DNA from: a virus
Length of the DNA stretch: 64,000 bases
Strand: one strand, 5' to 3'
Virus genome (UHGV): UHGV-0072281
Below are positions 261-64,000 of the stretch, piece after piece. The notes beneath the pieces are model-generated. The model was not told the origin of the DNA and did no database searches. It saw nothing but the letters and a program-made list of their open reading frames with translations. The position numbers and the translations under genes were made by a program. Position 1 is the stretch's first letter. The number at the start of each line of letters is the position of its first letter.

Positions 261-300
261 TCAGATATATATTACCTTAGTGAGATTACACAGTAATCTC
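261..300 (+). promoter_or_regulatory. Promoter-like motif TCAGATATATATTACC plus downstream inverted repeat (gagattac/gtaatctc)
   Basis: Same 15-16 nt motif recurs at 20149, 24537, 62581 (variants at 5299, 58236), each followed by a different short hairpin and then an RBS and gene. Confidence 0.5.
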
Positions 301-2475: not shown

Positions 2476-3283
2476 ACCAATTATAAAGTGGATGGGTGGC
2501 AAATCGCGGATCATCGACACCTTACTACAAGTCTTACCTGAACGTACAACATTCGTTGAACCGTTTGTTGGTGCAGGGTCGGTGTTTTTGAACACACGTT
2601 ATAAACGTTACATTCTTGCTGACTCTAACCCTGACTTAATACAGTTGCTGAACGTGGCGAAAGACCAACCTGAAGAACTTATCTTAAAGTCGAAACCGCT
2701 ATTCGAAGACGGTAACGATTGTATTAAGTATATGGAGAGACGAGAACTGTTTAATCGCGAAACGGATATGGCCCCGTTAGACCGTGCTGCAATGTTTCTG
2801 TACTTAATGCGTCATGGTTTTAACGGGATGTGTCGTTACAACGGCGGCGGAGGTTTTAACGTTCCGTTTGGTCGCTATCCTAACGGTGTGTATTACCCGT
2901 TAGAAGAGATTCGTGGTTGGGCTAAACGTTGTCAAGAACCGGAATACTTAGAAATTGTTTGTGAAGATTTCCGAACAGTTTTAGAGCGTACACCGGAAGA
3001 CAGCGTGATTTACGCAGACCCACCTTATATACCGCTCTCAGAGACCGCTAAACACGCCCAATACCATCGGAAGGAGTTTTCCCAGGCTGACCATCGGGAA
3101 CTCGCCAGAGCGCTGTTTAAGCAGGTTGAGAAGGGGAATAGCGTTGTGTTGTCCAATGCAGATACGTTACTAACGCGTGAGATTTATTACGGGTTCGAAT
3201 GGCGTTCTGTGGAAGTAGGGCGGTATATGGGTGCATCGGGCGCTGCTCGTAAAACGGTAACGGAATTGTTAGGAGTGCTCTAA
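2468..3283 (+). CDS. dam: DNA adenine (N6) methyltransferase, Dam family
   Basis: Close match to E. coli Dam signature blocks: KWMGGK, VEPFVGAGSVFLNT, YILAD, and catalytic DPPY; overlaps upstream gene by 8 nt. Confidence 0.9.
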   Translation: MHKPIIKWMGGKSRIIDTLLQVLPERTTFVEPFVGAGSVFLNTRYKRYILADSNPDLIQLLNVAKDQPEELILKSKPLFEDGNDCIKYMERRELFNRETDMAPLDRAAMFLYLMRHGFNGMCRYNGGGGFNVPFGRYPNGVYYPLEEIRGWAKRCQEPEYLEIVCEDFRTVLERTPEDSVIYADPPYIPLSETAKHAQYHRKEFSQADHRELARALFKQVEKGNSVVLSNADTLLTREIYYGFEWRSVEVGRYMGASGAARKTVTELLGVL

Positions 3284-6733: not shown

Positions 6734-7129
6734 ATGACAGCAATACTAGGTGTAATGACAAGAAAAGCCGATGCCATTGAAACGTTTATTGAACAATACA
6801 ACAACTCACCGTATACGCGTTTTAGATTGCATAAACCGAAGAATAGTACAGAATGGGTTCGTTGGTTTAGGATTTGGGATAAAACAATAAGTAAAATTGA
6901 TCCGTTATTTAGAATAACGGTTGAACCTGCTTATTGGATAGTAATGGAAATTTCGCTATTGCGTATTATCGAAAAACGTCCTATTGACACAAAGACGATG
7001 TTTGGGAATGATACGTATAAAATGTTGACTAACGGTTTTGTAGGTAATGGAGAACACACTTTGTATCAGGCGATGCTGGAAATGTGTTTGTTCGATTTAG
7101 TTACATACGAATTGGAGATTTCAAAATGA
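6734..7129 (+). CDS. Hypothetical protein
   Basis: 131-aa ORF with AGGAG RBS. Confidence 0.6.
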   Translation: MTAILGVMTRKADAIETFIEQYNNSPYTRFRLHKPKNSTEWVRWFRIWDKTISKIDPLFRITVEPAYWIVMEISLLRIIEKRPIDTKTMFGNDTYKMLTNGFVGNGEHTLYQAMLEMCLFDLVTYELEISK

Positions 7130-20148: not shown

Positions 20149-20194
20149 TCAGATATATATTACCTAGAGGAGAGTGAAATTTACATTCACTCCA
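20149..20194 (+). promoter_or_regulatory. Promoter-like motif TCAGATATATATTACC plus downstream inverted repeat (gagtgaa/ttcactc)
   Basis: Exact motif copy; precedes gene 20222. Confidence 0.5.
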
Positions 20195-24536: not shown

Positions 24537-24577
24537 TCAGATATATATTACCTAGGTGAGAGTTCAGTTACTCTCAC
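24537..24577 (+). promoter_or_regulatory. Promoter-like motif TCAGATATATATTACC plus downstream inverted repeat (gtgagagt/actctcac)
   Basis: Exact motif copy; precedes gene 24608. Confidence 0.5.
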
Positions 24578-29643: not shown

Positions 29644-30234
29644 ATGGCTGAACGTTGGACTAAAGAAGGTATTATTGAATCCAAAACCGATTTGGAAGGT
29701 GGGTACGTAAACGACCCTGACGACAAAGGTGGAGAAACCTGTCACGGGGTAACCTTAAAAACTGCACGCGAGTACGGATACACAGGGAAAATGAAAGACC
29801 TAACGCGCGCACAAGCGTTTGATATTTACGATCGGGGTTGGTGGAAGAAACTCAAACTCGATGAAATTTTCGCTATCTCACCGTTACTCGCAGACCGGAT
29901 GTTTGATTTTGGTATTAACGCAGGGCGTGCTAACTGTGTGAAATCGTTACAACGTATTCTCAACGTTTTAAACAACGAAGGGAAACTTTACGCAGATATT
30001 GACACCGACGGCGGTATGGGTCCTAAGACACTGGGTGCGTTGAACGCGTACCTGAAATATCGTAAAGATGAAGGATTGAGCATTTTAATCTTTGCGTTAA
30101 TCTCTCACCAAGTAACTTACTACACGGAAATCTCCGAAAAACGTAAGAGAAACGAGAAATACACCTACGGCTGGTACGCACGTGTGTTTAGAGAAATGGC
30201 AGATTATACGGTAAAAGCGGGATTAGTAAAATGA
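29644..30234 (+). CDS. Endolysin, glycoside hydrolase family 108-like with C-terminal peptidoglycan-binding region
   Basis: N-terminal motif EGGYVNDPDDKGGETCHGVT matches GH108 signature (EGGY..DP.D.GG.T..GIT); C-terminal W/G-containing region. Confidence 0.75.
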   Translation: MAERWTKEGIIESKTDLEGGYVNDPDDKGGETCHGVTLKTAREYGYTGKMKDLTRAQAFDIYDRGWWKKLKLDEIFAISPLLADRMFDFGINAGRANCVKSLQRILNVLNNEGKLYADIDTDGGMGPKTLGALNAYLKYRKDEGLSILIFALISHQVTYYTEISEKRKRNEKYTYGWYARVFREMADYTVKAGLVK

Positions 30235-30350: not shown

Positions 30351-31016
30351 ATGGAGAAGCTTCAATATAAACGTTTAGACAATAAGTGGTTTGTATTAAC
30401 GGAGGATTACCATTATCCGTTTACGTTACGTGAGATTTATCACGACCACGTACACTTAGACCGTGCGGTTTATTTAACGGGTGTATTGCCTGACACGCAA
30501 CTGTGGTTAACAGCACCTAAAGGGTTCGTTACTGATTTAGCGTCAATTCCTGAACACCTCCAGGGAATTTTCCATCCTGACGGACCGTGGGCACCTGCGG
30601 CCTGCATTCACGACTTACTGTATCAAAAATGTAACACGGAGCGTAGCTATCCCATGACACCGGGTGGTAACGTTTCGCGTATTATCGATAAAGAGTTCTC
30701 TGACTTAACATTCCTGCGTATTATGCAGTCGTTGGAAATCTCACCGTATATCTGCCAAACGTTTTATAAAGCCGTGGCGGGGTTCGGTTGGGATGCTTAC
30801 GTAGACCCTAACGCGAAACCGTCTTATACCACTAACGATTACCGTACGTTAGATTACAATCGAAACTATTTGTTCGTTCGTGAGTTTAAGGAGCCTGCTA
30901 TTCCTGACCACGAACGTGTTGATATCACCACAGGTTGTCCCGTTAATGTCAAATACCTGAACATCAAACGGGCTTTTCTGTCTGGGAGGGAAGATGTTTC
31001 ATCCAAATCCGAGTAA
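30351..31016 (+). CDS. DUF1353-like protein
   Basis: Motif FVTDLASIP resembles the TDxASIP block of DUF1353 (from memory); ATG 30351 with AAGGAAAGG RBS (track begins at GTG 30342). Confidence 0.45.
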   Translation: MEKLQYKRLDNKWFVLTEDYHYPFTLREIYHDHVHLDRAVYLTGVLPDTQLWLTAPKGFVTDLASIPEHLQGIFHPDGPWAPAACIHDLLYQKCNTERSYPMTPGGNVSRIIDKEFSDLTFLRIMQSLEISPYICQTFYKAVAGFGWDAYVDPNAKPSYTTNDYRTLDYNRNYLFVREFKEPAIPDHERVDITTGCPVNVKYLNIKRAFLSGREDVSSKSE

Positions 31017-31579: not shown

Positions 31580-31625
31580 CAAAATAAGCCTACCCTCCTG
31601 CTAAGCAGGAGGGTATTTATTATTC
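31580..31625. terminator. Bidirectional rho-independent terminator between convergent genes
   Basis: Hairpin accctcctgc-taa-gcaggagggt flanked by A-run upstream and T-run downstream. Confidence 0.75.
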
Positions 31626-32099
31626 TACCGGGTGCAGCATAGTGCCGGTATCCGGAATGCTGCCTTCGTGACATCTGAAGAACGTTACACCTTTACCTTC
31701 ACCCGTTTTGTAGCTGATGCTAGAATAGGCAAACGTTGGGGTTTTTGACAGTAACCCGTTTACACGGTAATAGCGCTCACCGGTAACGACGTTTAAGTTA
31801 CTGTCCACCTTACCTAACAAATCTTTATAAAGTTGCGGAGATTCGATTTTACCTTCGTTCCATGTAGCGACCCAATTCGCCCCTGTATCCATGACTAACA
31901 CCGAAAGGGGCATCAGTTTTAGACTAGACGGTACCGGTTTAAAATCCACGAATTCTTGAGAAGCACCTGTACAGGTGTAAATGACCATATCGTGTTGGTC
32001 AACAGGTACGGTGGAGAACTGACCTTCTGCGTTCGGCTGAATAGCACAACTTGCCAATGTCATTACAAAAGCAACGACCACGAGAATGCGTTTTAGCAT
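31620..32099 (-). CDS. Putative lipoprotein
   Basis: N-terminus MLKRILVVVAFVMTLASC has signal peptide plus lipobox-like LASC; lone minus-strand gene among plus-strand genes. Confidence 0.6.
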   Translation of the reverse strand: MLKRILVVVAFVMTLASCAIQPNAEGQFSTVPVDQHDMVIYTCTGASQEFVDFKPVPSSLKLMPLSVLVMDTGANWVATWNEGKIESPQLYKDLLGKVDSNLNVVTGERYYRVNGLLSKTPTFAYSSISYKTGEGKGVTFFRCHEGSIPDTGTMLHPVE

Positions 32100-34670: not shown

Positions 34671-35218
34671 TCGTCTTCTCCTTTAATTAAACCCAGCTCG
34701 ATCAGAAGATCAAAATCGATTTTACGAAACTTACTATCAAAATTTGAGTCCCAGTCAATATGTAGTCCTTGACGTTCGTCTTCTGTAAACTCGGGATAAA
34801 CTAAACTATGAAAAGTTTCCCTTTCATCGTAAAAACCATCGATGGTGGACTCTGGGTTTCGTGTGACATAAATTGTTACACCGGGAAACGATAAGCCTAG
34901 GGCGGCTACAGATTCAACACTCGGCTCTTGCAAAGCGCGTCGCAAAAGAACGATTTTATGTTTAGGGAATTCCAGCACGCGCTGTTCAAAACCTGGGTTT
35001 CGTTTCTCGATTTCAGCCACAGAAAGATCGGTAAGTTCTGTACAATACATCGGAATAACAACGGTAACTCCGTGACGAATTAATAATCGCTTAACATCGT
35101 CATTGAAATCTTCGCCGTTAATCTGTACATAACAGCCAAACAGTTTCGTAGTTTCTAAAAACTTTTCCAGAAAACGGAATTTACGCTTCGTAATATTGTG
35201 GATCAGAATTGGCTTCAT
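34646..35218 (-). CDS. Hypothetical protein in radical SAM/peptide locus
   Basis: 190-aa ORF overlapping the SPASM rSAM gene end. Confidence 0.5.
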   Translation of the reverse strand: MKPILIHNITKRKFRFLEKFLETTKLFGCYVQINGEDFNDDVKRLLIRHGVTVVIPMYCTELTDLSVAEIEKRNPGFEQRVLEFPKHKIVLLRRALQEPSVESVAALGLSFPGVTIYVTRNPESTIDGFYDERETFHSLVYPEFTEDERQGLHIDWDSNFDSKFRKIDFDLLIELGLIKGEDECLLLTKA

Positions 35219-36503
35219 CTTTGGCTTCTCTCAATTGTTTTTCTTTCTGGGCGCGTTCACGTACACAGCGAGGACAGTAACACATGCTATTATCGTGAAA
35301 ATCCTTCACGGATGTTGTGCCCATTTTCTGCTTCCAATATTCCGCAACCATCAATTTTGCAGTTGTCCAACCACACTGACGACGTTCAGCGTGATATGCT
35401 TTACGGTCTTCTAACGTCCCTTCCCCATTCTCGTAGGAAGCTGCTGCACAGCTACCACAAGCGTGTTTCATTGGACAACCTAAGCACGTCTCAGGATAGT
35501 TGGTGTATTGCGTCTGAATCTCTTCCAGCAGTTTCCCACCGTCTAAACTAACGAATTCGCGACCGACTAACTCAAATACCGCAGAGCGTGACGTTACAGT
35601 CGACATGAAACGGTTACAACCGAAAATCTTCCTGTCAAACCCTAAACAAGTCATGTGCGTTAATGTCCCGCAGAACGGGCGCAAGCGTTCCGGGTTTAAA
35701 CGTACAGTATCGTTGTAAAGTAGCTGATCACGCCAGTTCGGTTCCCAGATAGTGTCGAAATCTAACCCTTCCGGGATGATATGCGAAAGGGTATTACGTG
35801 GGTTGGTGTGTAAACCCTTTTCAACCCAATAATCGACTACATCCATCATTTGTAGCGCTATCGACGTAGCCATACTCCGTGGCATAATGTCTTCGAAGGT
35901 TACGTTACCAGAAATGGTTCCACCTCCCGCCAAATCGATTAGGGATTTCATACCCGCCGCATAATGTGGGAGTGTCTCCAAAGTAAATGTCGCTTTAACC
36001 CCAAGCTCCGCGATACCTACTTCTTTTAGATAATTGTAACCACGTACAGCGGCCTCGTAGGAACCTTCGCGACTCGTTGTAAAAATACGGTACTTATCGT
36101 GCGACTCAGGTAACCCATCAATAGATACCCCGATAGAAAGTCTGTCCTTCCAACGTTCAATAATTTCCCTGTTCAACGGCCTATCTAATAATGTCCCATT
36201 AGTAGAGATACTAAACATAAACGGACGTTTATGTTCTTCACACAACTGCTCGGCTGTTTCGAAAGCAGTCATTAGAAGCTTAGGCTGCATAAACGGTTCA
36301 CCGCCGATAATGTCAATGATGACTTCTACGTTTGGTAAATCTTTATCGCGTTCAAAGCAGGCATGAAGAAAGTCTACAATATCCGCTGCTTTGTTATTGC
36401 GGGGATATTTACGCTCGTAACAATACTCACAGTCCAAATTACACGACAAGTTTGTAACAATCTGGTAAGTCAACTGTTTCGGGTAATTATTTTCTTGGTT
36501 CAT
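35181..36503 (-). CDS. Radical SAM enzyme with C-terminal SPASM-like Cys-rich domain (putative peptide-modifying maturase)
   Basis: N-terminal CNLDCEYC (C-x3-C-x2-C), IIGGEPF glycine-rich SAM motif, C-terminal Cys clusters incl. CLGCPMKHACGSC. Confidence 0.8.
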   Translation of the reverse strand: MNQENNYPKQLTYQIVTNLSCNLDCEYCYERKYPRNNKAADIVDFLHACFERDKDLPNVEVIIDIIGGEPFMQPKLLMTAFETAEQLCEEHKRPFMFSISTNGTLLDRPLNREIIERWKDRLSIGVSIDGLPESHDKYRIFTTSREGSYEAAVRGYNYLKEVGIAELGVKATFTLETLPHYAAGMKSLIDLAGGGTISGNVTFEDIMPRSMATSIALQMMDVVDYWVEKGLHTNPRNTLSHIIPEGLDFDTIWEPNWRDQLLYNDTVRLNPERLRPFCGTLTHMTCLGFDRKIFGCNRFMSTVTSRSAVFELVGREFVSLDGGKLLEEIQTQYTNYPETCLGCPMKHACGSCAAASYENGEGTLEDRKAYHAERRQCGWTTAKLMVAEYWKQKMGTTSVKDFHDNSMCYCPRCVRERAQKEKQLREAKDEANSDPQYYEA

Positions 36504-37410
36504 TTAATACTCCACTATTACGGTTGGCCATAACCACTCGTCGAATATACTCGTAGGCTTCTAACCCGATGGAACAAGCTAATTGGTTACATCCCGATTC
36601 TAATAATCTCGGGGCATTTTGCAACTGATATTCGGTTCCATCTGCTCTTAACCATAAACTATTGCTGCATACGTTACACCCACCATCAAAAACTTTGCTT
36701 ACGACATAGTCACACCTTTTCGAGTTGGAAACATTCAGTCTTTCTATATTTTCCTGAATTCTAAAATACCCGTAAATAAAGTTCATAACGTGATCGGGAG
36801 ATAACGGTTTTGGCATATTTGCGTCTAACAGCAACGTCATGGTACGATAACCGTAGTGATAGATCGCATTATGAAGCTCAATAATGTCTTCATGCCACCG
36901 TTTGTTACCCAACTGTTCTCGAGTTAAAACGGCCCATGTATGAACATTTTCAAGCTCATGCATTACTTCTAAAGCTTCGTAGCAATCATCGCTAATAAAA
37001 CGCTTAAAAGGGCGTTCAGACAACTCAAACCCGTCGATGCTAACATATACGTTATCAAATTGTTTTAACAACGGTAGATGCGTTTTACGCATCTTTAAGC
37101 CATTGGTGTATAACTGATGTTTGAGTTCTGGGCGAACTGCTTTTAACTCGTCAACAAACGCCTCAATTTTACGAGTGGCTAACAAAGGCTCACCACCCGT
37201 CCATTGAATCTCGGTAATTGTTGGGTTAGCTTCTAACGCCTCCATAATTCGGTCACGTTGAAACTCTCGAGAAGAATCTTCACGATTCATGTAATAGGCT
37301 CCGCCGCAGAAACTACAGTCCAGATTACATTTGGATGTAGTAATAACGGCTAATATAGTTGGATTATCAAATAGCTGATCTGATAATTTTGGTTCCGCAT
37401 TGGTCGCCAT
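36487..37410 (-). CDS. Radical SAM enzyme (paralogue B)
   Basis: VITTSKCNLDCSFCGG (C-x3-C-x2-C), WTGGEPLL; C-terminal Cys residues; paralogue of 39018-39929 with blocks of perfect nucleotide identity. Confidence 0.8.
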   Translation of the reverse strand: MATNAEPKLSDQLFDNPTILAVITTSKCNLDCSFCGGAYYMNREDSSREFQRDRIMEALEANPTITEIQWTGGEPLLATRKIEAFVDELKAVRPELKHQLYTNGLKMRKTHLPLLKQFDNVYVSIDGFELSERPFKRFISDDCYEALEVMHELENVHTWAVLTREQLGNKRWHEDIIELHNAIYHYGYRTMTLLLDANMPKPLSPDHVMNFIYGYFRIQENIERLNVSNSKRCDYVVSKVFDGGCNVCSNSLWLRADGTEYQLQNAPRLLESGCNQLACSIGLEAYEYIRRVVMANRNSGVLNEPRK

Positions 37411-38556: not shown

Positions 38557-38955
38557 TCATCTTCCCGTACACGATTGCGAACAGCCACCATGACAGGTAC
38601 GACTACATGTACCTGTACATGTAGTCGTACATTGACCTATACATGTCCCCGTGCACCCACCAGAACATGAACTAGTACAACCTGAACATCCAGAACTACA
38701 ACCAGAAACACAGTTTGCTGAACATGAGGAACCACAACCTCCAGAAGCATTACCGGTACAACCACCAGAACAACTGGAGCACGTCCAGCTACAGCTACCA
38801 CCACAGTCGTAATGATTTTTAGGTTGCCCGCCAAATAGGTCGACATTATTCGTAGCCTTTCCACGAATATAGTTCTGTACTGCTCCAGTGTTTTTTAGCG
38901 CGGAAGAATCTATATTATCCAAGCGCGCTTTTAAAGAAGATAAACCAATCGCCAT
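38557..38955 (-). CDS. Cys-rich precursor-like peptide B (leader + long CxxxC-periodic core)
   Basis: 132 aa: ~50-aa leader then ~80-aa core with about 20 Cys at regular 4-residue spacing in G/S/T background, beginning DCGGSCSWTCS. Confidence 0.7.
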   Translation of the reverse strand: MAIGLSSLKARLDNIDSSALKNTGAVQNYIRGKATNNVDLFGGQPKNHYDCGGSCSWTCSSCSGGCTGNASGGCGSSCSANCVSGCSSGCSGCTSSCSGGCTGTCIGQCTTTCTGTCSRTCHGGCSQSCTGR

Positions 38956-39017: not shown

Positions 39018-39929
39018 TCACAATTTTGCCGGAATCCTATTCTTAGCCCCTACTACTCGTCGTATATAATCGTAAGCATCTAAGCCAACCTTTCTGGCTA
39101 AGTCACTACAGCCATGTTGCGTTACGATTTCAACGTTTTTTACTTGATTCTGGACACCGTCAGACTCGATACGTAAACAACGACTACATGTATTACAGGG
39201 TTCATCAAATAACGCGTTTAGCGTAAACGCGCACTCGCTTCGATTGGACGAATTCAGTCTTTCTATATTTTCCTGAATTCTAAAATACCCGTAAATAAAG
39301 TTCATAACGTGATCGGGAGATAACGGTTTTGGCATGTTTTTGTCCAAAACTAGCGACATCTCGCAAAAACCGTAATGGTAGATGTGATTATGTAGCGCAA
39401 TTATATCCTCATACCAGCGTTTATCACCGATACGTTCTCGTGTCAAGACTGCCCAGGTACGAATATTTTTCAATTCGTAAATTGTCTCCAACACCTCGTA
39501 TTGTTTTTCTTCGATAATCCGCATAAATGGACGCTCTGATTCTTTGAATCCGTCCATGCTAAAAAAGATGCTATCGAAACCCTTTAACAACGGTAGATGC
39601 GTTTTACGCATCTTTAAGCCATTGGTGTACAGGTAATGATCACAGCGAGGATACTTCTCCCTTATCTCTTCTATAAGGGCATCAATTTTACGCGAAGCGA
39701 GTAATGGTTCACCTCCCGACCACTGAATATTTGTGATGGTCGGGTTATTTTCCAGCGCCTCGATAATACTTTTCTTTTGTACTTCTGCGGTTGTATCCTC
39801 TCTATGCATGTAATAGGCTCCGCCGCAGAAACTACAGTCCAGATTACATTTGGATGTAGTAATAACATTTAACGTTCTTGGTTCAGAATACAATTGATCG
39901 GATACTGTCGGTGTGGTTAACTCTATCAT
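39018..39929 (-). CDS. Radical SAM enzyme (paralogue C)
   Basis: VITTSKCNLDCSFCGG, WSGGEPLL; immediately downstream of precursor C. Confidence 0.8.
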   Translation of the reverse strand: MIELTTPTVSDQLYSEPRTLNVITTSKCNLDCSFCGGAYYMHREDTTAEVQKKSIIEALENNPTITNIQWSGGEPLLASRKIDALIEEIREKYPRCDHYLYTNGLKMRKTHLPLLKGFDSIFFSMDGFKESERPFMRIIEEKQYEVLETIYELKNIRTWAVLTRERIGDKRWYEDIIALHNHIYHYGFCEMSLVLDKNMPKPLSPDHVMNFIYGYFRIQENIERLNSSNRSECAFTLNALFDEPCNTCSRCLRIESDGVQNQVKNVEIVTQHGCSDLARKVGLDAYDYIRRVVGAKNRIPAKL

Positions 39930-39953: not shown

Positions 39954-40346
39954 TTAAGTCGGTCCTGAACAAGACGCACATGCGCCACTACATCCCGAGC
40001 TACAACGCCCGGAGCATCTACCACTGCATGTAGCGCTGCAACCAGTGCACCCACCAGAACACGTAGCGCTGCAACCAGTGCATTGATTACCGCAGGCGGA
40101 TGAACAGCTTCCAACACACACTGAGGTGCACGTACCAGAACAACTTGTACAACCATGCGTACAACCGTTCGAGCACGTCCAGCTACAGCTACCACCACAG
40201 TCTAATCGACCCGGTGTCCAGCCTGAAAAAGAATCTGCGGCATTGTGAGCTTTTGATGCAACCTGTGGATCGACGCGGGGTCCTGTCGCCATTTGATTCT
40301 CTACGTTGGTGATTCGATCGCGAACGTTTTTAACACTAATCGCCAT
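39954..40346 (-). CDS. Cys-rich precursor-like peptide C (leader + long CxxxC-periodic core)
   Basis: 130 aa: leader MAISVKNVRDRI...GRLD then core CGGSCSWTCS... with about 21 Cys; AAGGA RBS. Confidence 0.7.
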   Translation of the reverse strand: MAISVKNVRDRITNVENQMATGPRVDPQVASKAHNAADSFSGWTPGRLDCGGSCSWTCSNGCTHGCTSCSGTCTSVCVGSCSSACGNQCTGCSATCSGGCTGCSATCSGRCSGRCSSGCSGACASCSGPT

Positions 40347-56832: not shown

Positions 56833-57042
56833 TTAGTCTTTTTTGTAGACAATCGCGTTACCGTGCAGTTTGTTGTTACCGGAAATACCGATAACTTTAA
56901 ACGCTTCACCGCCGATCTTTTCAGCTTCGACAGCCAGCTTAGCAGTAACGTCGTCTACGGTATCACCGAAAGCGCTTACGTTACCAATTTTCTTGAACTC
57001 TTCAGGAATGTGTTCAGCAGAAGAGAATTCTTTAATAGCCAT
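56833..57042 (-). CDS. Small protein resembling the DUF1471 (YdgH/BhsA/McbA) domain, without signal peptide
   Basis: 69 aa; C-terminal ISGNNKLHGNAIVYKK resembles the conserved G.NnkL.GTA..YK end of that family (from memory); GGAGAG RBS. Confidence 0.45.
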   Translation of the reverse strand: MAIKEFSSAEHIPEEFKKIGNVSAFGDTVDDVTAKLAVEAEKIGGEAFKVIGISGNNKLHGNAIVYKKD

Positions 57043-58235: not shown

Positions 58236-58290
58236 TCAGATATATTTTACTTAAGTGAATAGGAGCTGAAGTGCGAATTCAGCTCCTATA
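58236..58290 (+). promoter_or_regulatory. Promoter-like motif variant (TCAGATATATTTTAC) plus 11-bp-stem hairpin (taggagctgaa/ttcagctccta)
   Basis: Motif family member; sits in divergent intergenic region. Confidence 0.4.
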
Positions 58291-58595
58291 GGCACGTTTC
58301 TTTCGAAACGGAGTTACCACGTGATTAAGAGACAGACCAATGTCTACTGAGAAGAAAAGCGGATTGGACGAAGTCATCGAACTGTTCAAACGCTACAACC
58401 CAGCTATTCCTCGGTAATCATAGTATTACTTAAAATTTACAGATTGTCCCTTTATTCTGCTACTCGGGATACCGGTAGGGGGTAGGGGGCAATATGTATA
58501 CGGATATAAATAGCGGAGGTATACGTAGTATACCGACATACTCTTCCCAGAGGAACGTAGTGACTTCCTTATTCCAGTTTAGGAGAATAAACCCC

Positions 58596-59330
58596 ATGAG
58601 AGAATTATTAGACGATATCTTTACCAACACCAGTTTAGAACTTTCTTCTACGCTGGTTAACGAGCTAATAAAACAATACCAACCTGCTAAGTTAATCTCT
58701 GTCTGGATAGTTAAACCCGAAGAATATCCAGACAGTGACATTATCGACTGTATGATTGACGAATACGCTATAGGCAGTTACGCCAACCAGATCTACTTTA
58801 TTCTTAATACCGAAACCAGCATCATGTTAATCTATAAGTTGATCAGTGACGCCGAACTTGAAGTTGTGGCTGACCACATTCGTCTTCTTGCGAATGCGCC
58901 TACTGGTTACAAAGTTGCGCTTATTGGTGACGGTTGGCCTTTGCCACCGCTATTCACTTACTTCCCTCTGTTTAAACATGGGATAGGGTTACTCCGTCAT
59001 GCAGAAAATCTTCCCGATAACGTAGAGTTATCACTGCTTGGGCCCGGCATCGATCTTTATCCATTAAAAGACGAGGGCACGCTATATGGTTTGCGCATCT
59101 ATGTTTCTGTGTTAAAGGGATACCGCGTTATTGAATTGATTGCATCAGACTTAGCAAAACAGATCCCCGAAGCAGAAACGATTTCTAAAGCCACCCACCT
59201 GGTTGAAATTAACCCGGACGATCCGTTATTACGGTATCACAAAGAAATTGACCTTCGTAAAATCGCCACGATAAGAGGATGGGATTGTGCTGAGATTACG
59301 AATAATAACCTGTTACTAGTACGTAAGTAA
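58596..59330 (+). CDS. Hypothetical protein (possible member of tandem paralogue family)
   Basis: ATG 58596 with AGGAG RBS (track begins 58494); C-terminus GW...NNNLLLV loosely matches family motif. Confidence 0.5.
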   Translation: MRELLDDIFTNTSLELSSTLVNELIKQYQPAKLISVWIVKPEEYPDSDIIDCMIDEYAIGSYANQIYFILNTETSIMLIYKLISDAELEVVADHIRLLANAPTGYKVALIGDGWPLPPLFTYFPLFKHGIGLLRHAENLPDNVELSLLGPGIDLYPLKDEGTLYGLRIYVSVLKGYRVIELIASDLAKQIPEAETISKATHLVEINPDDPLLRYHKEIDLRKIATIRGWDCAEITNNNLLLVRK

Positions 59331-59350
59331 AAAACCTAAAGGAGAATAAA

Positions 59351-59908
59351 ATGTCTACTATTGAACTGAAACAACAAGTTATTGGGTTTATTAAGCTGGG
59401 TACAGGTAAACACCGACTTGATTATCCTTGCGTTATACAGTCTAACATTATCCCGGTCGATACAATGATTACCGGTCTTCAGGTTGAAGAATTTGATGGA
59501 GATGCTGTGGTTTGGGAACGCCATTTCACACGACTTAATTATCGTAAAGTCGGAGATAGTTTTACCGAAATATTCCGTCATCTGTTTTCCGGTACCGGAT
59601 GGAAAGTAACGAGTGCGTTCTACGGTGGCAATGTTGTTACGCTTCTAGACAGAGGAGATGCACGTTATCTCGTGAACTTTACTTTCGCAAGACACTATGC
59701 GTATTTCCCTAACCCTCTTACGTGTACGTTAAGTAACCCAGGAATACTACTAACAGATAAAGAAGCAGACGTTCTACTCGCCGAACTGCGAAAAGACGGT
59801 TGCGACGTTGACGATTGGGAAACATTAATCGCGGTTGCCAAAGCACACGGTTGGTACAGCGTACGTAAAATCGGTCAGCAGTTATTATTCTTAGCTTACC
59901 CTGTTTAA
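59351..59908 (+). CDS. Hypothetical protein, tandem paralogue family
   Basis: 185 aa; C-terminal HGWYSVRKIGQQLLFLA; conserved upstream CCTAAAGGAGAATAAAATG. Confidence 0.6.
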   Translation: MSTIELKQQVIGFIKLGTGKHRLDYPCVIQSNIIPVDTMITGLQVEEFDGDAVVWERHFTRLNYRKVGDSFTEIFRHLFSGTGWKVTSAFYGGNVVTLLDRGDARYLVNFTFARHYAYFPNPLTCTLSNPGILLTDKEADVLLAELRKDGCDVDDWETLIAVAKAHGWYSVRKIGQQLLFLAYPV

Positions 59909-59938
59909 GTAACAAAAAAACCTAAAGGAGAGTAAAAA

Positions 59939-61090
59939 ATGCGAAATATTATTTCTAAACCAGGACATGTCAAGATCCTAAAAGAACTGATGGACAGATG
60001 CTATAATCGGACTTGGCCTCTGCCAAGCTTAACCATCGAGTCTTCATTACAACGCGAGTTGTTTGGTTATAACTTGGGCTGCTGCGTACTGAGTGAATAC
60101 GATGAGATTATCGCGCCTGTCGATGTCTGTACTTACGATGAAGAAATTGAAGGTTACCAGTTCGAGGTTTACACAAATTCTGGACTAAATTACCGTAAAC
60201 TCGTTGTTAGAGAAAAGAGTAGCGGCCGGAAGATTATGTTTAAGGTCTTCCCAAGCGGTAAAGTCAGTAGTTTATGTTTTCAGCTTGAGCAAGTGTCCTT
60301 TCACGGCGCAGCTATTTTAACTAAAGCAGAACGTGCGTTATTAAGCGGGTTAATCGGCTTTGAAGCAAAAACCATCAAAGTAGAACAGGAACTCACACGA
60401 AACGATTTCGGCTCGACCTGGTACGAAAGTTTCTTCCGCTACGAAATTTTAAGTGATAAAGCTATCAAACTCACTTACCGTTCTACCGACGATCTCGTTT
60501 ACCACATTTTAATTAGCGGCGAACCCCATCTGATTATTGAAGACAAAGGAGAAAATCAAATGTCTGGCTTAAGAGACGAATTAGCCCAATTCATTCGTGA
60601 CGTCGAAGAGAAAAGCAAGAGCGATCACATTTTCTCACAACGCTATCCTGAACTTATTGACGAAACCACCGATAGTGTCGTCGATGTTATACGCATTTTC
60701 CCAAGTGGTTTTGCAATCTACCGACTGCCTAGCGTTAATCAGCTTAAAGTCATGGAAATGCTAAAAGACGTTTTAGCAGAAGCGGGTTGGGAATATCGTT
60801 TCGATTGCAATTTCGAAGGGATGGCGTTATTCGTTACAAAGAAAAATTATACGTTGTCAATCGATCTGCCCAAAAGTCAATATTACAGTTTCTTCCCAAA
60901 AGCGTATGACCGCACTGAAAAAGAACCTGCGTTGTTACTCGATGCGGCAGAATCCAATACGCTAATGATGCGTCTGCGGATGGTTGACAAAAAGTTAAAT
61001 ACCGGCCATCTAACGACGATCGGTAAAGATTACGGTTGGAAATCTGTCGAACCGTACGGCAGTCAGCTGCTGTTTGTTGCTGACCTTTAA
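59939..61090 (+). CDS. Hypothetical protein, tandem paralogue family
   Basis: 383 aa; C-terminal YGWKSVEPYGSQLLFVA. Confidence 0.6.
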   Translation: MRNIISKPGHVKILKELMDRCYNRTWPLPSLTIESSLQRELFGYNLGCCVLSEYDEIIAPVDVCTYDEEIEGYQFEVYTNSGLNYRKLVVREKSSGRKIMFKVFPSGKVSSLCFQLEQVSFHGAAILTKAERALLSGLIGFEAKTIKVEQELTRNDFGSTWYESFFRYEILSDKAIKLTYRSTDDLVYHILISGEPHLIIEDKGENQMSGLRDELAQFIRDVEEKSKSDHIFSQRYPELIDETTDSVVDVIRIFPSGFAIYRLPSVNQLKVMEMLKDVLAEAGWEYRFDCNFEGMALFVTKKNYTLSIDLPKSQYYSFFPKAYDRTEKEPALLLDAAESNTLMMRLRMVDKKLNTGHLTTIGKDYGWKSVEPYGSQLLFVADL

Positions 61091-61117
61091 TAAGTAAAAA
61101 TACACTTTCTCTAACTG

Positions 61118-61143
61118 CCGCGCTTTAGTCGCGGCTTTTGTTA
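61118..61143 (+). terminator. Rho-independent terminator (probable)
   Basis: Hairpin gccgcg-ctttagt-cgcggc followed by TTTTGTT. Confidence 0.55.
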
Positions 61144-61157
61144 AGAAGGAAAAAGAA

Positions 61158-61931
61158 ATGAAAATCCATTTAGATCACCTCTTTAAATCTGAACCGTATA
61201 TGGTTAAAGGTTCGCTGGCTTCATTGTTGCTAGACGATAGATTTCATCGAACGCTGCAATTACAATCGGTCGAATCCGCGCCAACAGAAGACGTGGGTCT
61301 TTATCAACGTATCACTTATACACGTGGAGAATATCGGCGATATAAACCTGATACGCTAACCGTTAAGCTCTGGCAAGTGGCCACAGGCAAAGTATTAACT
61401 TATCGCGCTGTTGGTCTGTACTACGTTGAACGTGCCTACGCATGGTTAGAAGAAGTTAAAGAAATGGATTACGACCGTTTAAGCAAAAGACTACGCGATA
61501 ATAACGCCAGTTTACCGCTACGTAATTATTTCTCCACAATTGAAAATAGTCGTTGTTTCGTTTCACGCGAATCCATGATATTGCCTGGGGCTGATGTTCA
61601 GACGACACTAAAAGATGTGGTTGTGAGGAAAATCTTTCATGAATCTGAACACGTTGGATTTCGTATCTATTTAACGCACAAGAGGCCATTTACCGTGATT
61701 CATCTTGTTACCGTACCCGAAGGCTCGGCAGTCGTACGTGAACTTCCTGACGCACGTGACCGTAGCCCTAATGAGCCACTTTACTTAATGTCAGGAACAA
61801 AATCAGAATCTTTGATGTCCCGTTACAGCATGGTTGATGTTGTTGATACTGCTATGAAATTAGGTTGGAAAGAAGTACAGCAACACGGCAAACAATTGCT
61901 GTTTATCGCAGATGTAAATCTCAATAACTAA
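61158..61931 (+). CDS. Hypothetical protein, tandem paralogue family
   Basis: 257 aa; C-terminal LGWKEVQQHGKQLLFIA. Confidence 0.6.
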   Translation: MKIHLDHLFKSEPYMVKGSLASLLLDDRFHRTLQLQSVESAPTEDVGLYQRITYTRGEYRRYKPDTLTVKLWQVATGKVLTYRAVGLYYVERAYAWLEEVKEMDYDRLSKRLRDNNASLPLRNYFSTIENSRCFVSRESMILPGADVQTTLKDVVVRKIFHESEHVGFRIYLTHKRPFTVIHLVTVPEGSAVVRELPDARDRSPNEPLYLMSGTKSESLMSRYSMVDVVDTAMKLGWKEVQQHGKQLLFIADVNLNN

Positions 61932-62526: not shown

Positions 62527-62560
62527 GGTGGGGTGTAAACCCCACCTTTTATTTTTTGTT
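62527..62560 (+). terminator. Rho-independent terminator
   Basis: Hairpin ggtggggt-gtaa-accccacc followed by T-run. Confidence 0.8.
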
Positions 62561-62580: not shown

Positions 62581-62620
62581 TCAGATATATATTACTTAGG
62601 TGAGAGTTAAGATTAACTCT
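62581..62620 (+). promoter_or_regulatory. Promoter-like motif TCAGATATATATTAC plus downstream inverted repeat (gagagttaa/ttaactct)
   Basis: Exact motif copy directly after terminator; precedes gene 62652. Confidence 0.5.
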
Positions 62621-62651
62621 TTTACTTGTTAACCCCACGAGGAGAAAAACA

Positions 62652-63113
62652 ATGAAAATTTTCACTTCCTTTTTAATCGTTCTTTTCGCAATCGGATTCA
62701 ATACTGCACACGCTGCAATCAATAGTTGGGAACAACTACAGAACCCAGGTCAGGCTGTTTACGAAATTGAAGACACCGCCGGAAACGGACTGTCTATCAA
62801 CTGTGACACTGAAACTGCGAATCGCAAATTTTACGGTCGCATGGTTTGGTATTACGGGGAACCTGTAGGTGCAACTAACGCTGAAGACAACACGCTGGAT
62901 ATCGTCGTAAATGGCAAAACTTACAACATCCCTACCGTGGATGGTAGTGACAAAGCAGAACACGCTTGGGTGGCTTTCGTTAATGCTATCGGCAATGCCA
63001 AAACTTTCAGTGTGAATATCAACGGAAACGAAGCCGCTAACTTTACCGTAGAAGGTGAACGTCTGTCTGAAACTTTCTTCCAGAACTGTGGACACACCCG
63101 TCCTAACAAATAA
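62652..63113 (+). CDS. Secreted protein (signal peptide)
   Basis: N-terminus MKIFTSFLIVLFAIGFNTAHA-A typical Sec signal with AxA site; GAGGAG RBS. Confidence 0.6.
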   Translation: MKIFTSFLIVLFAIGFNTAHAAINSWEQLQNPGQAVYEIEDTAGNGLSINCDTETANRKFYGRMVWYYGEPVGATNAEDNTLDIVVNGKTYNIPTVDGSDKAEHAWVAFVNAIGNAKTFSVNINGNEAANFTVEGERLSETFFQNCGHTRPNK

Positions 63114-63141
63114 GTATTAATCTTTTTTAGAGTGCGTGAAA

Positions 63142-63528
63142 ATGAATATCAGAACTATACTTTATACCATCATTATTTTCTGTGCAGTCGGTATTACTGC
63201 CACTTATGCTTTCGGTGAATCGGATGTCCGCTATTACGAACCGGCTCCTGACTCACCGATTATCAACCCGGATGAGACGCCTACGTTAATGCGCAGTTTC
63301 GGTAAACTGCAAGTTTATCGTTTAGTGCGTGGTGAAACGTGTACGGGATTGCTCATTGCTGACACTCGTGCACAAGTCTACCAACGTCTGACGGATATCG
63401 CCTGCGAACAACCAAAAGTCATGTCGGTCAGTATTCATCCGTTAGAGGTCGGTAACTATACTGCTGTGGACTTCTTCCATAATGCAGAACTGATTGGTCG
63501 TATTACTTTAAATCGTAGCGCTGAATAA
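63142..63528 (+). CDS. Secreted or membrane-anchored small protein
   Basis: N-terminal hydrophobic segment ILYTIIIFCAVGITATYA; ATG 63142 (track begins GTG 63136). Confidence 0.55.
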   Translation: MNIRTILYTIIIFCAVGITATYAFGESDVRYYEPAPDSPIINPDETPTLMRSFGKLQVYRLVRGETCTGLLIADTRAQVYQRLTDIACEQPKVMSVSIHPLEVGNYTAVDFFHNAELIGRITLNRSAE

Positions 63529-63546
63529 TTTAATGGAGAATTTACA

Positions 63547-64000
63547 ATGAAACGTTTACATACCCTGATGCTCTTCGTGGCTATTCTGTTCACGGGCTTT
63601 AACTTTAACGCAGAAGCGGCTAGTGTAAAACAAGCACTTAGCTGTAACCCGGAAGCCTGGGCTGAACAACCTGGTGCGTGTCCTGATATCAATACGCTCT
63701 ATACCGACGACGCTACTTATAAAGCCGCAATCGATAAAGCGTTGAAACCTGTCGGACTAGACGGGTTATTCGGTAAAGATGGCGTGATGGATGGTCCTGG
63801 CGGCGATGTTTTCCCTGTACAAATCAACGGCAAAGTCTGGCTTGAGTCTACCTCTTGCAAAAGCAATGCTTGTGGTTGGGAATACATCACGACGCTTTAT
63901 AACCCGCAGACCCATGTCGTGGTAGGTTACTATTACAACGTCGACCCAGGTTACCTGGTTTGGTTTGGCGATATCGGCGTTAATGAATTCGCCTATCTGG
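63547..64000 (+). CDS. Secreted protein, 3'-truncated by window edge
   Basis: ATG 63547 with GGAGAA RBS; signal peptide MKRLHTLMLFVAILFTGFNFNAEA; frame open to window end. Confidence 0.55.
   Translation, partial: MKRLHTLMLFVAILFTGFNFNAEAASVKQALSCNPEAWAEQPGACPDINTLYTDDATYKAAIDKALKPVGLDGLFGKDGVMDGPGGDVFPVQINGKVWLESTSCKSNACGWEYITTLYNPQTHVVVGYYYNVDPGYLVWFGDIGVNEFAYL

What the first reader, a model, noticed from the sequence alone, without database searches (positions are those of the whole stretch)
62652..64000. Three consecutive small proteins with Sec-type signal peptides
Seen in sequence: each of 62652-63113, 63142-63528 and 63547-end starts with a basic residue, a hydrophobic core and an Ala-x-Ala-like cleavage site. 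Inference: periplasm-directed phage effectors, with possible roles in lysozyme inhibition, receptor blocking or cell-wall remodelling.
Basis: partly seen in the sequence, partly recalled or inferred. Interest (0 to 1): 0.4.

Follow-up and report, generated by a model that had tools for sequence, protein, structure and literature searches.

The report
Jumbo-phage operon of exported proteins, one Ivy-like
Three neighbouring genes of a giant phage do encode small proteins sent out of the cytoplasm; one has the fold of the bacterial lysozyme inhibitor Ivy, and near-identical copies of it sit in many E. coli chromosomes, so it probably shields the infected cell wall from rival phages.

Summary
ORF1 (62652-63113), ORF2 (63142-63528) and ORF3 (63547 to the window end; 160 aa in full) each start with a basic residue, an uncharged hydrophobic stretch and a small-x-small site. 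Only 4 of 67 ORFs in the window look like this, and three of them are these adjacent genes.

The window comes from an SPN3US-like jumbo phage. A strong terminator and a repeated AT-rich motif precede the genes. The motif resembles jumbo-phage virion-RNA-polymerase early promoters. The full operon, read from an identical contig, has five exported proteins.

- **ORF1** belongs to the uncharacterised YfjT/YkfB family of E. coli CP4-type islands.
- **ORF2** is specific to this phage group and has no assignable function.

ORF3 homologues occur in 2333 of 5426 complete E. coli genomes, at up to 96% DNA identity. They lie in low-GC, phage-like blocks that keep an ORF2 pseudogene and the promoter motif. 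A preprint reports that knocking down an Ivy-like E. coli protein with the same loop as close ORF3 homologues raises T7 plating.

Most likely function: an early periplasmic envelope-defence cassette, with ORF3 inhibiting a peptidoglycan hydrolase as T4 Spackle does. That function is inferred, not shown.

The parts
62527..62556 (+). Intrinsic terminator (8-bp stem with 6 G-C pairs, then a T-run) that ends the upstream gene block and isolates the cassette as its own transcription unit.
   Evidence: the same element is in L011.
62582..62603 (+). Early-promoter-like motif CAGATATATATTACTTAGGTGA. The AT-rich core AGATATATATTAC is 62583-62595; the predicted transcription start is G at 62602, 6 nt after the core.
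   Evidence: Five copies in the window, all on the + strand and intergenic, four of them 70-73 nt before an ATG, with none expected by chance. It is conserved upstream of the SPN3US gp086 homologue. It matches the AR9 virion-RNAP consensus AAATATATATTAT-(6N)-G+1 at 11 of 13 positions (PMC5312081), and fits the general rule for jumbo phages (PMC7598289). Its promoter function is inferred.
62640..62644 (+). Shine-Dalgarno sequence AGGAG for ORF1.
   Evidence: Read directly from the sequence.
62652..63113 (+). ORF1, 153 aa: an exported protein of the YfjT/YkfB family (PF27224). Predicted signal peptide is residues 1-21 (62652-62714), with cleavage AHA|A. Two conserved cysteines (C51, C146).
   Evidence: BLASTP to K-12 YfjT gives 27% identity over 135 aa, E 3e-15. 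Precomputed PF27224 hits on near-identical proteins. AF2 model pLDDT 82; no confident solved-structure match.
63142..63528 (+). ORF2, 128 aa: an exported or membrane-anchored protein specific to SPN3US-like jumbo phages (phrog_9424; homologue of SPN3US gp086). The N-terminal hydrophobic segment is residues 5-24, and there are two conserved cysteines.
   Evidence: Only 13 representatives among 1.84 billion proteins. Family alignment.
63547..64000 (+). ORF3, truncated by the window end (160 aa in full): an exported Ivy-fold protein. Predicted signal peptide is residues 1-24 (63547-63618), with cleavage AEA|A.
63856..63873 (+). Codons for the ORF3 loop C104-K-S-N-A-C109, which aligns in register with Ivy's inhibitory CKPHDC loop.
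   Evidence: C104, K105 and C109 are invariant in the family. HMMER and hhalign alignments to Ivy 1GPQ/1XS0 and to K-12 Ivy place the loops in register.

Best explanation
The three genes are the first part of one operon of an SPN3US-like jumbo phage. The operon is probably early and probably transcribed by the virion RNA polymerase. It encodes five small proteins that the Sec pathway sends to the periplasm: ORF1, ORF2 and ORF3 in the window, then 136-aa and 129-aa proteins just beyond it.

ORF3 is a divergent Ivy-fold protein. By analogy with Ivy, its disulfide-closed loop C-K-S-N-A-C would plug the active-site cleft of a peptidoglycan glycosidase, either a lysozyme or a lytic transglycosylase. 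The most likely use is to neutralise the cell-wall-piercing enzymes of phages that attack an already infected cell. That would give superinfection exclusion and protection from lysis from without, as the unrelated protein Spackle does for T4.

ORF1 (YfjT family) and ORF2 (phage-specific) are exported partners of unknown activity. I assign them to the same envelope-defence role only because they share an operon with ORF3.

Shown here: the ORFs, the signal-peptide-like N-termini, the family and fold assignments, the terminator and promoter-motif architecture, and the shared module in E. coli. Inferred: export itself, early timing, the target enzyme and the biological role.
For: Exported character:
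- 3 of the window's 4 signal-peptide-like ORFs are these adjacent genes.
- The -3/-1 alanines and the cysteine pairs are conserved.
- The identical contig L011 shows five signal-peptide proteins in a row.

Ivy relationship of ORF3:
- NCBIfam Ivy E 6.5e-4 and Pfam Ivy E 0.046.
- hhalign to K-12 Ivy covers 87 columns at E 4.7e-4, with CKSNAC opposite CKPHDC.

Operon and timing:
- Terminator at 62527-62556, with the next strong terminators only after the sixth and seventh genes.
- The promoter-like motif occurs five times in the window and is conserved in SPN3US at the syntenic site. It matches experimentally defined jumbo-phage virion-RNAP early promoters.

Anti-phage role:
- In E. coli O121, knock-down of the Ivy-like protein Hypo_04657, which has a CKANTC loop, raised T7 plating efficiency (bioRxiv 10.1101/2024.04.20.590424). 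P0006 and P0007, 72-75% identical to ORF3, carry exactly that loop.
- ORF3 is the most divergent cassette gene between phage sub-lineages (63% identity against 96% for ORF2).

Precedents:
- T4 Spackle is a periplasmic early protein that inhibits the gp5 tail lysozyme (PMC7677548).
- Ivy proteins inhibit lytic transglycosylases in vitro, weakly in E. coli (PMC10139938).
Against: - No biochemical or expression data exist for any of these proteins.
- ORF3 scores below the curated cut-offs of both Ivy models (14.3 against 21 bits; 19.6 against 180 bits).
- The phage loop lacks the Pro, His and Asp of CKPHDC, so C-type lysozyme inhibition may not be retained.
- The ORF3 model is only moderately confident (pLDDT 68).
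- E. coli Ivy is only a weak lytic-transglycosylase inhibitor.
- The identification of Hypo_04657 with this family rests on the loop motif and the Ivy fold reported in a preprint, not on a sequence comparison.
- Early timing rests on motif resemblance alone.
- ORF1 and ORF2 have no functional lead.
- PADLOC has no match for any cassette protein.
- SignalP was not run.
Confidence: 0.5

Rival explanations
1. ORF3 and its partners act on the phage's own or the host's cell-wall enzymes rather than on rival phages. They would hold host lytic transglycosylases, or leaked phage endolysin, in check during the long jumbo-phage latent period, so the cell wall stays intact until programmed lysis.
For: Ivy proteins have been proposed as regulators of lytic transglycosylases, and E. 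coli up-regulates Ivy on overexpression of these enzymes. The phage encodes a GH108 muramidase in the window and an SLT-domain protein downstream.
Against: An early-made periplasmic inhibitor of the phage's own endolysin would work against lysis. The E. coli homologue restricts an unrelated phage, which fits defence better. E. coli Ivy is only a weak inhibitor of lytic transglycosylases and has no phenotype in vivo.
Confidence: 0.2
2. The hydrophobic N-termini, at least that of ORF2, are uncleaved membrane anchors. The proteins would act at the inner membrane, for example by blocking DNA entry of other phages as T4 Imm does, or by masking a receptor. Peptidoglycan hydrolysis would not be involved.
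For: ORF2's uncharged stretch is about 20 residues, and in the Erwinia-phage homologues the A-x-A site at that position is lost. ORF1 and ORF2 show no similarity to any hydrolase inhibitor.
Against: ORF3's Ivy fold and loop point to a soluble periplasmic inhibitor. Distant ORF2 relatives have short classical signal peptides. The A-x-A site is invariant or nearly so in the YfjT family.
Confidence: 0.15
3. The genes are passenger genes picked up from E. coli islands, with host-benefit or no function in the phage. For example, ORF3 might protect the bacterium from animal lysozyme, as classical Ivy does.
For: ORF1 and ORF3 have no tblastn match in 50,697 deposited phage genomes. Their relatives are mostly enterobacterial chromosomal genes.
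Against: The genes have phage-like GC content (44-47% against a window value of 44%), whereas the E. coli copies are low-GC islands among flanks of 52-58%. The cassette is intact in all five related jumbo-phage contigs. It lies behind a conserved phage promoter motif. A strictly lytic phage gains little from lysozyme resistance of its host.
Confidence: 0.07

Closest known systems
Ivy (inhibitor of vertebrate lysozyme; E. coli ykfE/ivy, P. aeruginosa Ivyp1; PDB 1GPQ, 1XS0, 1UUZ; Pfam PF08816)
   Different: About 14-15% identity. Below the curated thresholds of both Ivy models. The loop is CKSNAC (CKA[HN]AC or CKANTC in E. coli relatives) instead of CKPHDC. It has an extra conserved N-terminal cysteine pair (C33, C45) and a C-terminal helix. 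It is encoded by a lytic jumbo phage and by CP4-type islands rather than at the chromosomal ivy locus. Its inhibitory activity is untested.
E. coli O121 Hypo_04657 (PHAGEPACK preprint, bioRxiv 10.1101/2024.04.20.590424)
   Same: Ivy-like domain with a CKANTC loop, the loop carried by P0006 and P0007, which are 72-75% identical to ORF3. It is surrounded by hypothetical genes. Knock-down increases T7 plating, and the authors propose that it inhibits a phage lysozyme.
   Different: It is a chromosomal allele, about 225 aa, in which the first 65 codons of an upstream gene are fused to the Ivy-like part. The phage gene is the 160-aa form. The sequence of Hypo_04657 itself was not available to me, so the equivalence rests on the motif and the description.
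Bacteriophage T4 Spackle (sp, gp61.3)
   Same: A phage-encoded early periplasmic protein that blocks the peptidoglycan-cutting enzyme of superinfecting phages (PMC7677548). This is the working model proposed here for ORF3.
YfjT / YkfB of E. coli K-12 cryptic prophages CP4-57 and CP4-6 (Pfam PF27224)
   Same: ORF1 is a clear homologue: 27% identity, E 3e-15. It has the same length, the same signal-peptide A-x-A site and the same conserved Trp, Asn-Cys and C-terminal Cys.
   Different: ORF1 is only 20-25% identical to the bacterial members and forms a separate phage branch. In K-12 the gene follows the lipoprotein gene yfjS or yafY, whereas in the phage its neighbour is ORF2, which is not detectably related to YfjS. 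The family has no known function.
SPN3US gp086-gp083 and the Erwinia phage phiEaH2 gp104-gp107 block
   Same: Same genome position, between the baseplate region and the SMC-like gene. Same promoter motif. A run of small signal-peptide proteins. ORF2 is 47-53% identical to gp086 and gp104.
   Different: SPN3US has no ORF1 and no Ivy-like gene. The ORF3 slot holds gp085, a paralogue of gp084 and gp083 (hhalign 95%) that is unrelated to ORF3. In phiEaH2 and Asesino a 434-aa gene sits upstream of the ORF2 homologue, where ORF1 lies here, plus a 79-aa gene in phiEaH2.

Membership tests
Ivy family (PF08816 / NF007443), for ORF3 | N-terminal Sec signal peptide, periplasmic location | tested here: met
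   The heuristic n/h/c analysis finds cleavage at AEA|A after residue 24. A24 is invariant. Residues 1-23 are unstructured in the model. SignalP was not available and export was not shown.
Ivy family (PF08816 / NF007443), for ORF3 | Ivy three-dimensional fold | tested here: met
Ivy family (PF08816 / NF007443), for ORF3 | Disulfide-closed six-residue loop at the position of the inhibitory loop | tested here: met
   C104, K105 and C109 are invariant in 12 family members. The loop aligns in register with CKPHDC of 1GPQ and K-12 Ivy.
Ivy family (PF08816 / NF007443), for ORF3 | Strict CKPHDC motif, including the His that contacts the lysozyme catalytic residues (the role of the His is from my own recollection of the Ivy-lysozyme structure) | tested here: not met
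   The phage loop is CKSNAC. Relatives have CKAHAC, CKANAC, CKANTC or CKSDAC.
Ivy family (PF08816 / NF007443), for ORF3 | Score above the curated family thresholds | tested here: not met
   Pfam 14.3 bits against a 21-bit cut-off. NCBIfam 19.6 bits against a 180-bit cut-off.
Ivy family (PF08816 / NF007443), for ORF3 | Inhibits C-type lysozyme or a lytic transglycosylase | not testable with these tools
   Needs purified protein and enzyme assays.
YfjT/YkfB family (PF27224), for ORF1 | Significant full-length sequence similarity to family members | tested here: met
   BLASTP to K-12 YfjT gives E 3e-15 over 135 aa. Near-identical proteins carry precomputed PF27224 hits. A profile that includes ORF1 retrieves 213 proteins, nearly all annotated PF27224. 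The local Pfam copy lacks this model.
YfjT/YkfB family (PF27224), for ORF1 | Conserved family residues (signal-peptide A-x-A, W26, N50-C51, C146) | tested here: met
   These are invariant or nearly invariant columns in the 36-sequence alignment A3.
YfjT/YkfB family (PF27224), for ORF1 | Neighbour is a YfjS/YafY-type inner-membrane lipoprotein (the K-12 context) | tested here: not met
   The neighbour is ORF2, which has no lipobox. ORF2 against YfjS gives BLASTP E 0.13 and hhalign probability 1.3-2.5%.
SPN3US gp086 family (phrog_9424), for ORF2 | Full-length similarity and syntenic position | tested here: met
   phrog_9424 E 8.4e-42. 47-53% identity over 98% of its length to 53 phage records. 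Same position and promoter motif in SPN3US.
T4 Spackle, for ORF3 | Sequence or fold relationship to Spackle | tested here: not met
Spanins / lysis cassette, for ORF1-3 | Lipobox outer-membrane spanin plus an embedded or adjacent type-II membrane inner-membrane spanin, next to holin and endolysin genes | tested here: not met
   There is no lipobox cysteine at +1 in any of the three proteins and the genes do not overlap. The endolysin gene lies 32 kb away.

The most novel reading that the evidence does not exclude
E. coli CP4-type genomic islands have captured a piece of a jumbo-phage early operon complete with its virion-RNA-polymerase promoter, and kept the Ivy-like gene as an anti-phage factor. 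Because the phage-type promoter motif is still there, 63-64 nt before the first gene of the block, the host copy could be switched on by the RNA polymerase that an infecting jumbo phage injects. That would be a defence gene wired to the invader's own transcription machinery. The phage uses the same protein to exclude competitors.
Probability: 0.1. Interest if true: 0.85.

Novelty: new variant of a known kind. Interest (0 to 1): 0.55.

Why it matters
Periplasmic inhibitors of cell-wall hydrolases are known from bacteria (Ivy, MliC, PliC). In the material I consulted, Spackle of T4 is the one phage-encoded example.

Here an Ivy-fold protein with a variant inhibitory loop is encoded by a lytic, SPN3US-like jumbo phage, inside what looks like an early operon devoted to exported proteins. 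I found no match for it in 50,697 deposited phage genomes or in the BFVD viral structure set.

The same gene, at up to 96% DNA identity, lies in phage-like low-GC blocks in the islands examined, and 43% of complete E. coli genomes carry a homologue. A preprint links an Ivy-like E. coli protein with the same loop motif to restriction of T7.

If the function is confirmed, three things follow:
- A widespread y-ome-type E. coli gene gets a mechanism.
- A second, structurally independent solution to Spackle-type superinfection exclusion is established.
- Gene flow from virulent jumbo phages into bacterial defence islands is documented.

All of this can be tested directly with simple plating and enzyme assays.

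Tried and rejected
2. **ORF2 as a YfjS/YafY-like partner of the YfjT-like ORF1.** By eye the Cys-x-Gly and GR-I/L-T motifs look alike. BLASTP gives E 0.13 and hhalign gives probability 1.3-2.5%, even with a nine-sequence ORF2 alignment. This is not established.
3. **ORF2 or ORF3 as paralogues of the gp085/gp084/gp083 family.** Rejected by hhalign. gp085, gp084 and gp083 are paralogues of each other (about 95%).
4. **Known defence systems.** No PADLOC hit for seven cassette proteins.
5. **Viral structural relatives of ORF3.** Foldseek against BFVD found nothing below E 0.08.
6. **A phage source for the 180-aa protein that heads the E. coli block.** No tblastn hit in the deposited phages and no relative in IMG/VR.
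7. **Literature on YfjT.** No functional study found.
8. **A literal text search for the promoter core TATATTAC.** Uninformative. The promoter argument rests on PMC5312081 and PMC7598289 instead.
9. **Sigma-70 promoter scan.** Nothing above chance near the cassette.
10. **Spanin or lysis cassette.** Rejected: no lipobox, no overlapping genes, and the endolysin is elsewhere.
Full report
**1. What is there**

The last 1.35 kb of the window holds three closely spaced + strand ORFs exactly as described:
- ORF1, 62652-63113, 153 aa.
- ORF2, 63142-63528, 128 aa.
- ORF3, 63547 to the window end, 151 codons visible.

The contig IMGVR_UViG_3300014543_000002 (locus L011) is identical to the window tail. 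It shows that ORF3 is 160 aa and ends 29 nt beyond the window.

Each protein begins with one or two basic residues, an uncharged hydrophobic run and a small-x-small site: AHA|A, TYA|F and AEA|A. SignalP was not available, so I wrote a simple n/h/c-region test. It flags 4 of 67 ORFs of at least 80 aa in the window: these three adjacent genes and a lipoprotein-like ORF at 31620-32099(-). Three in a row is far from chance.

Independent support:
- The -3 and -1 alanines are invariant or nearly invariant in the family alignments.
- Distant ORF2 relatives keep a classical signal peptide although its sequence differs.
- AlphaFold leaves the N-terminal 18-23 residues unstructured.
- All three mature parts carry conserved cysteine pairs, as expected for proteins that fold in the oxidising periplasm.

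ORF2's hydrophobic stretch is about 20 residues, so an uncleaved signal anchor cannot be excluded.

**2. Genomic setting**

At the DNA level the region matches deposited phages only over about 55 bp of intergenic sequence. ORF2, however, is 47-53% identical to a hypothetical protein of SPN3US (gp086) and of 52 other Salmonella, Escherichia, Proteus and Erwinia jumbo-phage records, and it lies at the syntenic position. The window is therefore from an undeposited relative of the SPN3US and phiEaH2 jumbo phages.

A strong intrinsic terminator (62527-62556) closes the upstream genes. It is followed by the motif CAGATATATATTACTTAGGTGA at 62582-62603.

That motif occurs five times in the window, always on the + strand and always intergenic. 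Four copies lie 70-73 nt before a start codon, and none is expected by chance. It sits at the same place upstream of SPN3US gp086.

Its AT-rich core plus a G six nucleotides downstream matches the experimentally mapped virion-RNA-polymerase early promoter of jumbo phage AR9, AAATATATATTAT-(6N)-G+1 (PMC5312081). It also fits the general description of early promoters in RNAP-encoding jumbo phages (PMC7598289).

I therefore infer, but have not shown, that the cassette is an early transcription unit starting near G62602.

In L011 and four sister contigs the unit continues with two more signal-peptide proteins of 136 and 129 aa, homologues of SPN3US gp084 and gp083, and then a 158-aa protein. The next strong terminator follows that gene. 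SPN3US likewise has four signal-peptide proteins in a row. Its gp085, gp084 and gp083 are paralogues of each other (hhalign about 95%).

**3. ORF3 is a divergent Ivy-fold protein**

Sequence models gave weak hits in the right place:
- Pfam Ivy, E 0.046.
- NCBIfam "Ivy family C-type lysozyme inhibitor", E 6.5e-4 over residues 51-133.
- A family profile against PDB sequences aligned "CKANAC" with the "CKPHDC" of 1GPQ and 1XS0.

hhalign against K-12 Ivy gives a collinear 87-column alignment (E 4.7e-4) that pairs the helices, the beta-strands and the two loops. In the 12-member family alignment C104, K105 and C109 are invariant, while the loop interior varies: CKSNAC, CKSDAC, CKAHAC, CKANAC and CKANTC.

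ORF3 thus keeps the fold and the disulfide-closed loop that Ivy inserts into the lysozyme active site. It does not keep the strict motif, and it scores below the curated thresholds. I file it as an Ivy-like variant, not as an orthologue.

No viral protein in BFVD resembles it, and tblastn finds nothing in 50,697 deposited phage genomes.

**4. ORF1 and ORF2**

ORF1 is a homologue of E. coli K-12 YfjT, from cryptic prophage CP4-57, at 27% identity over 135 aa and E 3e-15. Near-identical proteins carry precomputed Pfam PF27224 (YfjT) hits. A profile search retrieves the enterobacterial YfjT/YkfB family.

ORF2 belongs to phrog_9424. An exhaustive search of 1.84 billion representatives found only 13 relatives. 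Its function is unknown. Tests of a relationship to the lipoprotein YfjS, the K-12 neighbour of YfjT, or to the gp083-085 family were negative or inconclusive.

**5. The module is shared with E. coli genomic islands**

ORF3's protein relatives are mostly E. coli chromosomal proteins. At the DNA level 2333 of 5426 complete E. coli genomes have a match, and 16 records match at 95-99% identity.

The gene lies in CP4-type islands. On one side are dynamin-like GTPase, YjcZ/RdcB and patatin genes. On the other are the DUF932, antirestriction, RadC, DUF987 and CbeA/CbtA genes.

- **Strain VE-T9.** A 949-bp block covering ORF3 and the 136-aa gene is 88.6% identical to the phage. The proteins are 96% and 77% identical.
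- **Other islands.** A pseudogene remnant of ORF2 lies directly upstream of the ORF3 homologue, with residues 75-128 at 81% identity and residues 4-53 in another frame.
- **Composition.** The E. coli block has 41-47% G+C, against 52-58% for the neighbouring island genes and 44% for the phage window.
- **Promoter motif.** The block is preceded by a terminator and by the phage promoter motif, 63-64 nt before its first gene. In L006 this is 7034-7055, with 3 mismatches and none expected by chance. In VE-T9 it reads CATATATATATTACC.

ORF2 and the 136-aa gene are long-standing residents of SPN3US-like phages, and in E. coli the surroundings of the ORF3 homologue are decaying. The most economical reading is that a jumbo phage of this clade donated the block to the islands and that only the Ivy-like gene is being maintained there. 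The reverse direction for ORF3 itself is not excluded.

Between phage sub-lineages ORF3 is the most divergent cassette gene, at 63% identity against 96% for ORF2. Its closest relative is an E. coli allele rather than another phage allele. This points to repeated exchange or diversifying selection.

**6. Function**

A preprint (bioRxiv 10.1101/2024.04.20.590424) reports work on E. coli O121. Knock-down of the hypothetical protein Hypo_04657 increases T7 plating efficiency. Its Ivy-like domain carries a "CKANTC" loop, the loop of P0006 and P0007, which are 72-75% identical to ORF3. The authors propose that it inhibits a phage lysozyme.

Ivy proteins also inhibit lytic transglycosylases in vitro, though E. 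coli Ivy does so only weakly (PMC10139938).

T4 provides the precedent for a phage using such a protein. Spackle is an early periplasmic protein that binds the gp5 tail lysozyme and excludes superinfecting phages (PMC7677548).

Putting this together, the best-supported explanation is an early periplasmic envelope-defence cassette. In it, ORF3 blocks a peptidoglycan glycosidase of competing phages, giving superinfection exclusion and protection from lysis from without.

Confidence is high, about 0.9, that ORF3 is an exported Ivy-fold protein and that ORF1 is a YfjT-family member. It is moderate, about 0.4-0.5, for the proposed role. For ORF1 and ORF2 there is no more than guilt by association.

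The rivals are:
- Control of host or own autolysins during the long latent period.
- Action at the inner membrane as anchored proteins.
- Passenger genes of host benefit.

**7. Novelty and verdict**

Relative to what is known, this is a new variant of a known kind: an Ivy-fold, variant-loop protein in a lytic jumbo phage, embedded in an operon of exported proteins and shared with E. coli defence-island-like regions.

The function is unproven, so interest is moderate to high (0.55). The least conventional reading still open is that E. coli kept the phage's own early promoter to drive the captured gene. I give that about a 10% chance.

Noticed in passing
window 262-283, 20150-20171, 24538-24559, 58237-58258, 62582-62603 (+): A 22-nt motif, CAGATATATWTTACYTARGTGA, repeated five times. 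All copies are intergenic, on the + strand and ahead of + strand gene blocks; none is expected by chance. It is probably the virion-RNA-polymerase early promoter of this phage, and would define at least five early transcription units in the window.
   Followed up: partly
L006 7034-8483, L019 6742-7941 and L021 (E. coli chromosomes): E. coli CP4-type islands carry a low-GC, phage-like block. It holds the promoter motif, a 180-aa signal-peptide protein, an ORF2 pseudogene, the ORF3 homologue and sometimes the 136-aa gene. In some alleles (VE-T9 and the 223-227-aa proteins P0003, P0004, P0006 and P0007) the first 65 codons of the 180-aa gene are fused in frame to the Ivy-like gene.
   Followed up: partly
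window 58494-61931 (+): Four consecutive genes (278, 185, 383 and 257 aa). The last three share a C-terminal motif, GW..V...G.QLLF.A, and the first ends in a weaker version of it. They look like a paralogous family with no Pfam match, and sit behind another copy of the promoter motif.
   Followed up: no
window 31620-32099 (-): A 159-aa ORF with a typical lipoprotein signal (MLKRILVVVAFVMTLASC, lipobox LASC). It is the only other signal-peptide-like ORF in the window and has no Pfam hit. It lies about 1.4 kb downstream of the endolysin gene, so it could be a spanin component or an exclusion lipoprotein.
   Followed up: no
window 29644-30234 and 30351-31016 (+): A GH108 muramidase with a PG_binding_3 domain, the likely endolysin, followed by a DUF1353 protein. 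This is a candidate own-enzyme target to test against ORF3.
   Followed up: no
window 35181-36503, 36487-37410, 39018-39929 (-); small ORFs at 38557-38955 and 39954-40346 (-): Three radical-SAM/4Fe-4S proteins lie on the minus strand alongside the large structural-looking ORFs. Two of them are each adjacent to a roughly 130-aa protein with similar N-termini (MAIGLSSLKARL... and MAISVKNVRDRI...). This looks like peptide- or protein-modifying enzyme and substrate pairs, which is unusual next to tail genes.
   Followed up: no
window 56833-57042 (-): A 69-aa YdgH/BhsA-like (DUF1471) protein without a signal peptide; SPN3US annotates its counterpart as a DUF1471 domain-containing protein. From memory, bacterial members of this family are normally exported.
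   Followed up: no
window 2468-3283 (+): A D12-class N6-adenine DNA methyltransferase (Dam-like), E 3.8e-57.
   Followed up: no
L011 5406-5888 against L013/L014 5406-5891: Between sister phage contigs the Ivy-like gene is only 63% identical, while the adjacent ORF2 is 95-96% identical and the other cassette genes 75-92%. This is a local divergence hot spot, suggesting allele replacement or diversifying selection.
   Followed up: partly
L016 2383-3981 and L017 2401-3687 (Erwinia phages phiEaH2 and Asesino): The slot between the gp087-like gene and the ORF2 homologue is variable. It is empty in SPN3US, holds ORF1 (YfjT-like) in the window phage, and holds a 434-aa gene in the Erwinia phages, plus a 79-aa gene in phiEaH2. 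In each case the slot lies just behind the promoter motif.
   Followed up: no
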